Shown here piece after piece: positions 17,407 through 17,958 of a stretch of 24,000 bases of DNA (the stretch's first letter is position 1; every line of letters starts with the position of its first letter). The notes beneath the pieces were generated by a model. That model worked only from the letters and a program-made list of their open reading frames with translations, was not told the origin of the DNA and did not search any database. Source of the stretch: Roseivirga sp. (GTDB taxonomy: Bacteria; Bacteroidota; Bacteroidia; Cytophagales; Cyclobacteriaceae); the NCBI GenBank assembly GCA_965279445.1, contig OZ257241.1, positions 611,888 to 635,887 of the forward strand. Direction: 5' to 3'. A program made the translations under genes and the position numbers.

Positions 17407-17958
17407 TTAGCTACTTTGAGATCCCTGCGTTCCACCACCGCTCTGGCCTCCTCCCGAACCACCGGCAGTTTTATTCGCCTGTCCACCGCCTCCGGCCTGA
17501 GTTGCCTGACCCGATTGCGCTGTGGTTTGAGTCGAGGTAGTTGTCTGTTTTGCTGTTGGGGTAGTAGTGGTGGTGGTTTGCGTACCAGCACTACCCGGAG
17601 GTCCCGGTGGCCCTACCAGTCCTATCACCCCCCTTGCTCCGGTAGATCCGCTGGGGCCGGCAAGGCCTGTTGGGCCAATAGGTCCTGCGGGACCGGGAGG
17701 TCCGGGAGGGCCCGTAGGACCAGGCTTCGCTGGCGGGCCGAATGTCGCCAGAATACGGGCGCAGGTAGTAGTCGTGGCAGCAGCATTTACGAGTTGGGCA
17801 TTGTGCTGAGCCGTGACGGCATTGTGCATTGACATGCCCAGCGTTTCGGCCATTACCGTGTTAACGATAGACATAGACTTGGAATTGTCTATACCCGTGA
17901 GCAAAGACTGCAATTGGCTGAGGTTCTGAATGGTTTGTGAGTTATCCATTTTTTGCAA
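17407..17958 (-). CDS. Reb-like core fused to a collagen-like (GXY)n segment and a T/Q/G-rich tail
   Basis: Residues ~28-72 ([44 protein letters not shown]) resemble the Reb core. Residues 80-127 are 16 uninterrupted GXY triplets ([48 protein letters not shown]). The tail is [16 protein letters not shown]...GGGGQ...[11 protein letters not shown]. Confidence 0.75.
17578..17739 (-). repeat. collagen-like GXY triplet repeat inside CDS 17407..17958
   Basis: GGN-CCN-rich DNA. I hand-checked the frame, for example GGA GCA AGG GGG GTG ATA GGA CTG GTA GGG CCA CCG GGA CCT CCG GGT. The repeat also generates spurious ORFs on the opposite strand and in other frames. Confidence 0.8.

What the first reader, a model, noticed from the sequence alone, without database searches (positions are those of the whole stretch)
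17407..17958. Reb-like domain fused to a bacterial collagen-like triple-helix repeat
The 183-aa protein combines three parts. The first is an N-terminal module with the Reb-core pattern ([23 protein letters not shown]). The second is 16 uninterrupted GXY triplets rich in GPP, long enough to form a collagen triple helix as in Scl- and BclA-type bacterial collagens. The third is a Thr/Gln/Gly-rich tail. A collagen stalk on an R-body subunit could trimerise subunits. It could also decorate the ribbon surface with filaments for adhesion or target recognition, or act as a spacer or spring. I am not aware of a described Reb-collagen fusion.
Basis: partly seen in the sequence, partly recalled or inferred. 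Interest (0 to 1): 0.75.

Follow-up and report, generated by a model that had tools for sequence, protein, structure and literature searches.

The report
Collagen-tailed accessory R-body (Reb) protein
This is a real, conserved gene in an R-body (bacterial coiled protein ribbon) operon, encoding a small Reb-type helical domain followed by a short collagen-like Gly-X-Y segment; the same fusion is already in sequence databases from several bacterial phyla, but I found no paper describing it.

Summary
The minus-strand ORF 17407-17949 is 180 aa from the ATG that homologs support. It passes the curated Pfam cutoffs for RebB (42.1 bits vs 24) and Collagen (35.3 vs 27.2). It has 16 uninterrupted G-X-Y triplets and a Thr/Gly/Gln-rich tail.

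It is not a one-off. I found 19 database clusters and 11 genome loci with the same fusion, carrying 12-67 triplets. They include cultured Reichenbachiella versicolor and Desulfovibrio ferrophilus, plus MAGs from Bacteroidota, Proteobacteria and Desulfobacteraceae.

The collagen segment carries a conserved in-register motif (G-L-R/Q-G-P-S/T-G-x-T-G-A-Q/K-G-x-I-G). Gly is invariant while third codon positions are saturated, so the protein is under purifying selection.

The gene sits in a conserved accessory module (small Cys-Reb, p110, p339, tailed Reb) found in reb clusters of many phyla. Most orthologs have a non-periodic proline-rich tail in place of the collagen segment.

Best reading: a low-copy accessory R-body subunit whose Reb core joins or nucleates the RebB lattice and projects a ~14 nm trimeric collagen-like rod. 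Triple-helix formation and the function are inferred, not shown.

No paper found describes it. Novelty: new variant of a known kind. Interest is moderate.

The parts
17407..17949 (-). CDS of the Reb-collagen protein (180 aa plus stop). An alternative TTG start at 17958 would give 183 aa.
   Evidence: ORF list. ATG start supported by alignment with P0008, P0001 and L007. Pfam RebB plus Collagen, both above curated cutoffs.
17740..17949 (-). Reb core, aa 1-70. Predicted helical hairpin with the motif [21 protein letters not shown] and an invariant Cys63 (codon 17761-17763) in TTTTCARIL.
   Evidence: PF11747 at 42.1 bits. Gap-free alignment to a primary RebB, 29% identity, E=8e-5. AF2 helices 3-18 and 22-70 at pLDDT 70-85. 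Invariant columns in A1, A2 and A4.
17722..17739 (-). Junction GPP-AKP (aa 71-76): one true triplet followed by one off-pattern triplet.
   Evidence: Direct reading of the translation.
17578..17721 (-). Collagen-like region: 16 uninterrupted G-X-Y triplets (aa 77-124). Pro occupies 9 of 16 X positions and 4 of 16 Y positions.
   Evidence: PF01391 at 35.3 bits.
17608..17667 (-). Conserved in-register motif inside the collagen region: [20 protein letters not shown] (aa 95-114). Family consensus is G-L-[RQ]-G-P-[ST]-G-[SA]-[TV]-G-A-[QK]-G-x-I-G-x-x-G-P.
   Evidence: Anchored comparison of 27 fusion proteins: Gly 27/27 at seven consecutive positions, Ile 24/27, Thr/Val 27/27, Leu 20/27. Codon-level test.
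17410..17577 (-). Low-complexity tail rich in Thr, Gly, Gln and Ser (aa 125-180), almost uncharged. Variable across homologs, where it is usually acidic or charged.
   Evidence: AF2 pLDDT below 50.
17962..18981 (-). p339: conserved ~340-aa protein of unknown function immediately upstream. Its stop lies 12 nt before the target's ATG.
   Evidence: Orthologs adjacent to or near the tailed Reb in most loci examined. No Pfam, NCBIfam or PDB match.
19008..19340 (-). p110: highly conserved 110-aa protein with sub-threshold RebB similarity. Part of the accessory module.
   Evidence: PF11747 E=0.011, below cutoff. 51-77% identity across phyla.
19409..19684 (-). Small Cys-containing Reb with a poly-Gly tail. 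The true start is probably internal, since orthologs are 51-54 aa. It is a paralog of the target's core.
   Evidence: PF11747 at 34.7 bits. 43% identity to the target core including the T-C motif. Orthologs.
17173..17397 (-). 74-aa RebB-family protein immediately downstream of the target.
   Evidence: PF11747 at 65 bits. Same position in L002 and L006.
15247..17141 (-). Six tandem primary RebB paralogs of 85-89 aa, with QITD and QQQ motifs in most. These are the presumed bulk R-body subunits.
   Evidence: PF11747 at 92-109 bits each. ORFs.
19674..20510 (-). AraC-family regulator at the head of the cluster.
   Evidence: HTH_18 and HTH_AraC. Conserved position in L005-L009, L015, L018 and L021.
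12274..14175 (-). AAA+ ATPase with a winged-helix domain. It is conserved downstream of the reb genes in Bacteroidota-type clusters.
   Evidence: PF00004 and PF22977. Orthologs in L002, L005-L009 and L015.

Best explanation
The gene encodes a low-copy accessory subunit of an R-body. SHOWN: it is a selected, protein-coding gene. Its N-terminal 70 residues are a Reb-family helical hairpin. It is followed by an uninterrupted, sequence-conserved G-X-Y segment and a variable low-complexity tail. It is a fixed member of an accessory module (small Cys-Reb, p110, p339, tailed Reb) that accompanies the multi-copy primary RebB genes in reb clusters of many phyla. Orthologs at the same position carry either this collagen-like segment or a non-periodic proline-rich segment. 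INFERRED: the Reb core docks into, or nucleates, the lattice built by the six primary RebB paralogs. Three neighbouring chains, held in register by their helical Reb cores much as the N-terminal V domain does in streptococcal Scl proteins, zip their 16 triplets into a hydroxyproline-free triple helix about 14 nm long (48 residues x 0.286 nm). This rod, like the polyproline-II-type tails of its orthologs, would act as a stiff arm or spacer projecting from the ribbon. The conserved Pro-poor patch (G-L-R/Q-G-P-S-G-x-T-G-A-Q-G-x-I-G) would be a specific docking surface for a partner, either an operon protein such as p110 or p339 or the adjacent ribbon layer. The flexible polar tail would sit at the tip. 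The protein has no signal peptide or anchor, so this would all happen in the cytoplasm where R-bodies assemble.
For: Both domains pass curated Pfam cutoffs. The periodicity is far beyond chance. The fusion recurs in 19 clusters with precomputed PF11747+PF01391 and in 11 genome loci with 12-67 triplets, plus D. ferrophilus. Across 29 proteins, 567 triplets lie in uninterrupted runs, with 50% Pro at X and Gln, Pro and Thr most common at Y. That matches the bacterial collagen preference for Pro at X and Thr at Y reported in PMC8968730. The conserved in-register motif lies at a fixed distance from the Reb core. Third codon positions are only 18-41% identical while amino-acid identity is 51-69%, and all the invariant Gly columns use 3-4 different GGN codons. 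Synteny holds in L002, L003, L005-L015 and in Proteobacteria, Myxococcota and Cyanobacteria. Orthologs have Pro-rich tails at the same position. There is one copy of this gene against six primary RebB copies. AF2 predicts a helical hairpin core and an unstructured remainder, as expected for a single chain. No hydrophobic segment is present (maximum 15-aa Kyte-Doolittle hydropathy 1.0). A 48-residue collagen-like region falls within the 27-1,158 residue range reported for Bcl proteins. In type 51 R-bodies, minor or non-incorporated Reb proteins (RebD, RebC) control the assembly pathway (abstract).
Against: There is no experimental evidence for a triple helix, for trimerisation by the Reb core, or for incorporation into R-bodies. 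Sixteen hydroxyproline-free triplets may be only marginally stable without a strong trimerisation domain, and the oligomeric state of Reb cores is unknown. No Reb structure exists in the PDB. Many orthologs function with non-collagen Pro-rich tails, so the triple helix is not essential to the role of this subfamily. Rod length varies from 12 to 67 triplets, which argues against a universal fixed-length ruler. In an unbootstrapped tree of ~70 columns the collagen-bearing forms are interleaved with Pro-rich forms, so the evolutionary direction is unresolved. R-body production has not been demonstrated for this organism.
Confidence: 0.55

Rival explanations
1. Same protein and same operon role, but the G-X-Y segment never forms a triple helix. 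It would be a monomeric polyproline-II or disordered extended linker, equivalent to the non-periodic Pro-rich tails of its orthologs, and the Gly periodicity would be tolerated rather than required.
For: Positional orthologs in Pedobacter, Mucilaginibacter, Azospirillum, Xanthomonas, Bradyrhizobium and L002 have Pro-rich tails without G-X-Y periodicity. The segment is short and lacks hydroxyproline. No recognised trimerisation domain is present. AF2 gives no structure there, although a single-chain model cannot show a triple helix either way.
Against: Gly is invariant at every third position with no interruption within the runs, which total 567 triplets in 29 proteins and reach 53 and 67 triplets in two of them. 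Third codon positions are saturated. A disordered linker would not maintain strict period-3 Gly. The conserved X/Y residues (Ile, Thr/Val, Leu, Gln/Lys) indicate a defined structure or surface.
Confidence: 0.25
2. It is an assembly-pathway factor rather than a structural decoration. Collagen-mediated trimerisation would bring three Reb cores together to seed or steer polymerisation of the primary RebB proteins, as RebC and RebD do for type 51 R-bodies. The protein would be absent or only trace in the finished ribbon.
For: RebC is required for correct roll formation but is not detectably incorporated, and RebD is a minor component (abstract of bioRxiv 10.64898/2026.05.21.725848). The 2026 survey suggests a possible regulatory role in assembly for ctRebC, to which some secondary Reb proteins are similar. 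The gene is single-copy and tightly linked to the conserved unknowns p110 and p339.
Against: Nothing distinguishes this from the structural-arm model with the present data. A conserved Pro-poor surface motif and a long variable tail are not obviously needed for a seed.
Confidence: 0.15
3. It is a secreted or surface collagen-like adhesin of the Scl, BclA or Lcl type that merely lies inside a reb cluster.
For: Weak NCBIfam similarity to Scl1, Scl2 and Lcl collagen regions (E about 1e-7).
Against: The scores are 16-31 bits against cutoffs of 325-500. There is no signal peptide, hydrophobic segment or LPXTG motif (direct reading of the sequence). The N-terminal domain is Reb-family. The tail is low-complexity, not a globular C1q-like domain. 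The gene is a fixed syntenic member of reb clusters.
Confidence: 0.03
4. It is an artefact: a repeat-shadow ORF, a frameshifted pseudogene or an assembly error.
For: GC-rich G-X-Y coding repeats do cause misassembly, as contig L001 shows. The opposite strand also has long ORFs.
Against: The frame runs continuously from a Reb core through the repeat to a stop. The same architecture occurs in at least 29 independent sequences. Selection acts at the protein level in this frame.
Confidence: 0.02

Closest known systems
Primary R-body structural proteins RebA/RebB (Pfam PF11747, 'Killing trait')
   Same: Homologous helical core of about 70 aa with a gap-free alignment (29% identity). It is encoded in the same operon as six primary RebB paralogs and has the NAV motif.
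   Different: It lacks the QITD and QQQ signature motifs, having QTIQNL and QHNAQ instead. It has an invariant Cys, which PMC13430693 says is rare in Reb proteins. It also carries a 110-aa extension made of a collagen-like segment and a low-complexity tail.
[quoted passage not shown]
   Same: A divergent Reb core followed by a Pro-rich C-terminal extension. The collagen-less orthologs found here (Pedobacter, Azospirillum, Xanthomonas and others) fit that description.
   Different: The paper never mentions collagen or G-X-Y periodicity (0 occurrences). Here the extension is a strict, conserved G-X-Y repeat that passes the Pfam Collagen cutoff.
RebC and RebD of the type 51 R-body (Caedibacter taeniospiralis)
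   Same: Low-copy accessory Reb-cluster products needed for correct assembly rather than forming the bulk lattice. This is a plausible functional analogy.
   Different: No collagen-like or Pro-rich extension is reported for them. RebC has no detectable homologs according to PMC13430693. The relationship is by analogy only.
Streptococcal collagen-like proteins Scl1/Scl2 (V-CL architecture)
   Same: The order is an N-terminal non-collagenous domain, then a hydroxyproline-free G-X-Y region, then a C-terminal non-collagenous region. In Scl the N-terminal domain nucleates trimerisation (PMC8968730). From my own recollection, not checked here, the Scl2 V domain is itself a trimer of helical hairpins.
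   Different: There is no signal peptide or LPXTG anchor. NCBIfam scores are about 31 bits against cutoffs of 325-400. The collagen region is much shorter than the ~79 triplets I recall for Scl2 (recollection, not checked). The protein is presumably cytoplasmic and part of a polymer.
Bacillus exosporium BclA-type collagen-like proteins
   Same: A short, length-variable collagen-like region (Bcl regions span 27-1,158 residues) that forms projecting filaments on a proteinaceous surface, with Thr-rich composition.
   Different: BclA has a globular C-terminal trimerising domain and is glycosylated and extracellular. Here the C-terminus is low-complexity and the structured domain is N-terminal and Reb-type.

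Membership tests
RebB / R-body protein family (PF11747) | Profile match above the curated gathering threshold | tested here: met
   42.1 bits against a cutoff of 24, aa 14-71, profile positions 6-63 of 68.
RebB / R-body protein family (PF11747) | Encoded in a reb gene cluster with multiple Reb paralogs | tested here: met
   Seven strong RebB genes, one further small Reb above the Pfam cutoff and one sub-threshold Reb-like gene lie on the same strand within about 4.5 kb. The same holds in all syntenic loci.
RebB / R-body protein family (PF11747) | Alpha-helical core | tested here: met
   AF2 predicts helices 3-18 and 22-70 at pLDDT 70-85.
RebB / R-body protein family (PF11747) | Signature motifs QITD (domain 1), NAV and QQQ (domain 3), as defined in PMC13430693 | tested here: inconclusive
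   NAV is present (MHNAVTAQ). QITD is absent in the window protein (QTIQNL) but present in other collagen-bearing members (P0014, P0016, P0019). QQQ is replaced by QHNAQ. The paper notes that secondary groups lack some motifs.
RebB / R-body protein family (PF11747) | Physical incorporation into an R-body, or a requirement for its assembly | not testable with these tools
   This needs purification with mass spectrometry or immuno-EM, or genetics.
Collagen triple-helix repeat / bacterial collagen-like proteins (PF01391) | Uninterrupted Gly at every third residue over a run long enough for a helix | tested here: met
   16 triplets in the window. 12-67 triplets in 29 family members with no interruption within the runs. 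None of 200,000 shuffles exceeds 10 triplets.
Collagen triple-helix repeat / bacterial collagen-like proteins (PF01391) | Profile match above the curated gathering threshold | tested here: met
   35.3 bits against a cutoff of 27.2. Homologs carry precomputed PF01391.
Collagen triple-helix repeat / bacterial collagen-like proteins (PF01391) | Residue preferences typical of collagen-like regions: Pro at X, and Thr, Gln or Pro at Y | tested here: met
   Across the family, X is 50% Pro, and Y is Gln 19%, Pro 19% and Thr 15%. Reference values are in PMC8968730.
Collagen triple-helix repeat / bacterial collagen-like proteins (PF01391) | An adjacent non-collagenous domain that trimerises and nucleates the helix | tested here: inconclusive
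   A helical Reb core directly precedes the repeat, but its oligomeric state is unknown and no solved homolog exists.
Collagen triple-helix repeat / bacterial collagen-like proteins (PF01391) | Actual triple-helix formation (220-nm CD band, cooperative melt, protease resistance) | not testable with these tools
   Only single-chain prediction was available. Multimer modelling and wet-lab assays could not be run.
LPXTG-anchored collagen-like adhesins Scl1/Scl2 (NF038330, NF038329) and Lcl (NF046116) | Profile score above the curated cutoff; signal peptide and cell-wall anchor | tested here: not met
   31.3, 30.4 and 16 bits against cutoffs of 400, 325 and 500. No hydrophobic N-terminus and no LPXTG (direct reading).
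Secondary Reb group S2 (PMC13430693) | [quoted passage not shown] | tested here: inconclusive
   The description fits the subfamily. The seed sequences and group tables were not held in the accessible supplements, so membership could not be checked directly.

The most novel reading that the evidence does not exclude
The collagen-like segment forms a true cytoplasmic triple helix that is built into a bacterial mechanical actuator. Reb-core-templated trimers would project about 14 nm rods (up to about 57 nm in the 67-triplet homolog). Their conserved G-L-R-G-P-S-G-x-T-G-A-Q-G-x-I-G patch would dock p110, p339 or the neighbouring ribbon layer, and so set interlayer spacing or nucleate the roll. 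That would be a role for collagen in bacteria that I have not seen described: intracellular and structural within a pH-driven machine. It would also give a genetically tunable handle, the triplet number, on R-body architecture.
Probability: 0.2. Interest if true: 0.75.

Novelty: new variant of a known kind. Interest (0 to 1): 0.5.

Why it matters
R-bodies are pH-triggered protein actuators whose assembly rules and accessory factors are still poorly understood. The 2026 preprint shows that minor Reb proteins, not the bulk subunits, decide whether a functional lamellar roll forms. This work defines a widely conserved accessory module (small Cys-Reb, p110, p339, tailed Reb). It also shows that in a subset of lineages the tail is a conserved collagen-like segment with a sequence-specific motif. 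That yields a concrete, testable candidate for a spacer, arm or nucleator. For the collagen field, it would be a bacterial collagen-like domain that is apparently cytoplasmic and embedded in a polymeric machine, whereas the roles covered in the review I read are adhesins and spore-surface proteins. Two cultured carriers, Reichenbachiella versicolor DC003 and Desulfovibrio ferrophilus, make experiments feasible. If the segment turns out to be only a flexible linker, the finding reduces to a curiosity of domain architecture.

Tried and rejected
(1) N-domain-only searches of the annotated protein database returned no Collagen-bearing hit. I first read this as rarity. I rejected that reading when the exhaustive HMMER search found fusions. 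In those two calls no hit exceeded about twice the query length, so they could not have seen the fusions.
(2) A genome scan with the p339 protein alone found nothing.
(3) An exact look-up of the window protein found no record.
(4) P0001 looked like a natural short form with four triplets. I rejected this because its contig is a chimera.
(5) TRF found no DNA tandem repeat, which rules out a recent microsatellite-type expansion.
(6) PDB profile searches with the Reb core and with p339 found nothing.
(7) The single-sequence AF2 model of p339 had pLDDT 41 and is unusable. I therefore ran no fold searches. The target model is a single long helical hairpin plus coil, which would match non-specifically.
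(8) Pfam and NCBIfam scans of p339 orthologs, p110, p224, p82, p487 and p310 gave nothing credible.
(9) Promoter and terminator scans were at shuffle background.
(10) The supplementary files of PMC13430693 that were held as text did not contain the group tables.
(11) The N-domain NJ tree has about 70 columns and no support values, so I do not use it to decide whether the collagen tail had one origin or several. In that tree L045 was mislabelled as collagen because of a (GGS)n run.
(12) I did not compute a melting temperature. The host-guest stability tables were not available offline, and I did not want to rely on values recalled from memory.

Full report
OBSERVATION. The ORF exists on the minus strand at 17407..17958. 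From the TTG it is 183 aa. Alignment with homologs that begin MDNAQTINNL or MDVPKSIQEL places the true start at the ATG at 17949, giving 180 aa, and I use that numbering below. Pfam gives RebB PF11747 at 42.1 bits (curated cutoff 24) and Collagen PF01391 at 35.3 bits (cutoff 27.2). Residues 77-124 are 16 uninterrupted G-X-Y triplets, preceded by GPP-AKP. The tail (T17, G14, Q10, S7 of 58 residues) is almost uncharged. None of 200,000 composition-preserving shuffles of the 54-residue segment exceeds 10 triplets. The segment is 71% GC in a 45% GC window, and TRF finds no tandem repeat at the DNA level.

IS IT A REAL GENE? Yes. In a 39-codon block of the collagen core compared across 12 loci, amino-acid identity to the window is 51-69% in the 11 correctly anchored loci. 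Third-codon-position identity is 18-41%, which is near random. Every invariant Gly column uses three or four different GGN codons. That is purifying selection on this reading frame, so the plus-strand ORFs over the same DNA are shadows.

DOES THE FUSION RECUR? Two N-domain-only searches showed no collagen-bearing homolog. In both, no hit exceeded about twice the query length, so they were blind to longer proteins. The exhaustive HMMER search with the full protein found short proteins matching across both parts. The full-length profile search then listed 19 clusters with precomputed PF11747+PF01391. One of these is P0273 from cultured Desulfovibrio ferrophilus, which NCBI names 'RebB family R body protein' and UniRef names 'Collagen triple helix repeat protein'. 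A scan of species-representative genomes added Reichenbachiella versicolor DC003 (69% identity, 16 triplets). It also added MAGs labelled Chryseobacterium, Bacteroidia, Bacteroidota and Chitinophagales (14-26 triplets), a Proteobacteria MAG (14), a Desulfobacteraceae MAG (53), a Bacteroidota MAG with 67 triplets in a 450-aa protein, and a partly masked Cytophagales MAG. Across 29 proteins, 567 triplets lie in uninterrupted runs, with 50% Pro at X and Gln 19%, Pro 19% and Thr 15% at Y. The closest database protein, P0001, looked like a four-triplet form. Its contig is a chimera. After GIPGPMGPTGPP it continues with the reverse complement of the real continuation, which reads [36 protein letters not shown], and then with an exact 69-nt repeat of the upstream gene's 3' end. 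It is therefore another Reb-collagen protein truncated by misassembly.

THE COLLAGEN SEGMENT HAS SPECIFIC SEQUENCE. Anchoring 27 family members shows an in-register motif about six triplets after the start of the repeat: G-L-[RQ]-G-P-[ST]-G-[SA]-[TV]-G-A-[QK]-G-x-I-G-x-x-G-P. Gly is 27/27 at seven consecutive positions, Ile 24/27, Thr/Val 27/27 and Leu 20/27. The window sequence is [20 protein letters not shown]. The repeat starts 13-16 residues after an invariant Cys in most members. Conservation of hydrophobic X/Y residues in a Pro-poor stretch is what one expects of a binding surface on a rod, and not of a compositional spacer. That last step is inference.

GENOMIC SETTING. The gene lies in a minus-strand operon of about 13 kb. 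In order it contains: an AraC regulator (19674-20510), a small Cys-containing Reb (19409-19684), p110 (19008-19340, sub-threshold RebB similarity), p339 (17962-18981, no known family), the target, a 74-aa RebB, and six RebB paralogs of 85-89 aa (15247-17141). These are followed by p224, an AAA+/winged-helix ATPase, p82, p487, a DNase II-family protein, a GH25 muramidase and p310. The order from AraC to the AAA+ ATPase is shared with L005, L006, L007, L008, L009 and L015, and GH25 and p310 recur at the end in L005 and L006. In L002, Pedobacter and Mucilaginibacter the same operon has a positional ortholog with a non-periodic Pro-rich tail. The trio of tailed Cys-Reb, p110 and usually p339 also occurs in reb clusters of Azospirillum, Bradyrhizobium, Xanthomonas, Caulobacter, Ideonella, Arenicella, a Myxococcota MAG and a Cyanobacteria MAG. 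There the gene order differs and the tails are Pro-rich. D. ferrophilus, the Proteobacteria MAG L013 and the Desulfobacteraceae MAG L014 carry the collagen form. The target is therefore the local version of a broadly conserved accessory R-body component, and the collagen-like segment is one of two alternative extended tails.

STRUCTURE. AF2 with a 35-sequence alignment predicts helices 3-18 and 22-70 (pLDDT 70-85) and no secondary structure afterwards. That is expected, because one chain cannot form a triple helix. The core aligns without gaps to a primary RebB (29% identity, E=8e-5) and more closely to the small Cys-Reb (43%). No solved structure is related to the Reb core or to p339. The single-sequence model of p339 is unusable (pLDDT 41). 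The protein has no hydrophobic segment, which fits cytoplasmic assembly.

MECHANISM. My preferred reading is as follows. The Reb hairpin joins or seeds the RebB lattice. Three adjacent chains zip into a hydroxyproline-free triple helix of about 14 nm. The rod acts as a stiff arm or spacer carrying a docking motif and a flexible tip. The parallel with Scl proteins, whose N-terminal domain nucleates trimerisation of a hydroxyproline-free collagen region (PMC8968730), makes this plausible, and a 48-residue region is within the 27-1,158 range reported for Bcl proteins. The finding that minor Reb proteins govern the assembly pathway of type 51 R-bodies makes an assembly-factor role a serious alternative. 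The fact that orthologs use Pro-rich tails makes a non-helical linker the main structural rival. Strict Gly periodicity over as many as 67 triplets, under saturated synonymous divergence, argues against that rival.

COMPARISON WITH WHAT IS KNOWN, AND NOVELTY. By curated thresholds the protein is a member of the RebB family and contains a collagen repeat. It is not an Scl-, Lcl- or BclA-type protein: NCBIfam scores are 16-31 bits against cutoffs of 325-500, there is no signal peptide or anchor, and there is no globular C-terminal domain. [quoted passage not shown] Full-text searches pairing R-body, Reb or 'Killing trait' with collagen found nothing relevant. The domain architecture is therefore visible in databases but, within the literature I could search, undescribed. 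I rate it a new variant of a known kind, with moderate interest at 0.5. It is a surprising domain combination with clear evidence of selection and with cultured carriers available, but the function is unproven and the architecture is not unique to this window.

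Noticed in passing
window 9211-10518 (-) and 8422-9198 (-): A DNase II-family protein (PF03265, E=5.7e-70) and a GH25 muramidase (PF01183, E=6.6e-54) lie at the distal end of the same-strand reb operon. From general knowledge, DNase II enzymes are acid nucleases and R-bodies unroll at acid pH, so this could be a payload or toxin. GH25 could be a lysis function that releases R-bodies. GH25 recurs in L005, L006, Pedobacter and Mucilaginibacter, and L002 has GH108 instead. 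The DNase II had no counterpart in the flanks I fetched.
   Followed up: partly
window 19008-19340 (-) and 17962-18981 (-): p110 is 51-77% identical across phyla and has only sub-threshold RebB similarity. p339 has no Pfam, NCBIfam or PDB match. Together they form a conserved accessory pair next to the tailed Reb in reb clusters from Bacteroidota to Cyanobacteria. Their function is unknown and I did not find them discussed in the papers I read.
   Followed up: partly
window 19409-19684 (-): This is a small Reb paralog sharing the target's MHNA...T-C motif and ending in KKGGGGGGGSSSKKTG. The listed 91-aa ORF overlaps the end of the AraC gene, while orthologs are 51-54 aa, so the real start is probably internal.
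   Followed up: partly
L001 1566-1781 (GCA_038530695.1, JBCBCL010001225.1): The public MAG contig is chimeric inside the G-X-Y repeat. It contains a 40-nt inverted repeat, the collagen continuation in reverse complement, and then an exact 69-nt direct repeat of positions 1196-1264. As a result the deposited protein P0001 is artificially truncated.
   Followed up: yes
L029 1012-2364 and L014 6001-6700: These are extreme family members with 67 triplets (450 aa, with the otherwise invariant Cys replaced by Val) and 53 triplets. The N-proximal conserved motif is retained and the extra triplets are added C-terminally.
   Followed up: partly
window 12274-14175 (-): An AAA+ ATPase with a winged-helix domain is conserved downstream of the RebB array in Bacteroidota-type clusters (L002, L005-L009, L015). 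It may be an assembly or remodelling factor.
   Followed up: no
window 16872-17273 (-): The mechanical 133-aa ORF almost certainly starts at the internal ATG (17141), giving an 89-aa RebB like its five neighbours.
   Followed up: partly
window 20911-22313 (+) and 1366-2634 (+): Two tandem DUF2461 genes lie just outside the operon, and a pentapeptide-repeat protein lies near the other end of the window. Both appear unrelated to the finding.
   Followed up: no
tool behaviour: the search for homologous proteins returned no hit longer than about twice the query length. Short-domain queries can therefore miss fusion proteins, and an absence of multi-domain hits from such a query should not be read as evidence of absence.
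   Followed up: partly
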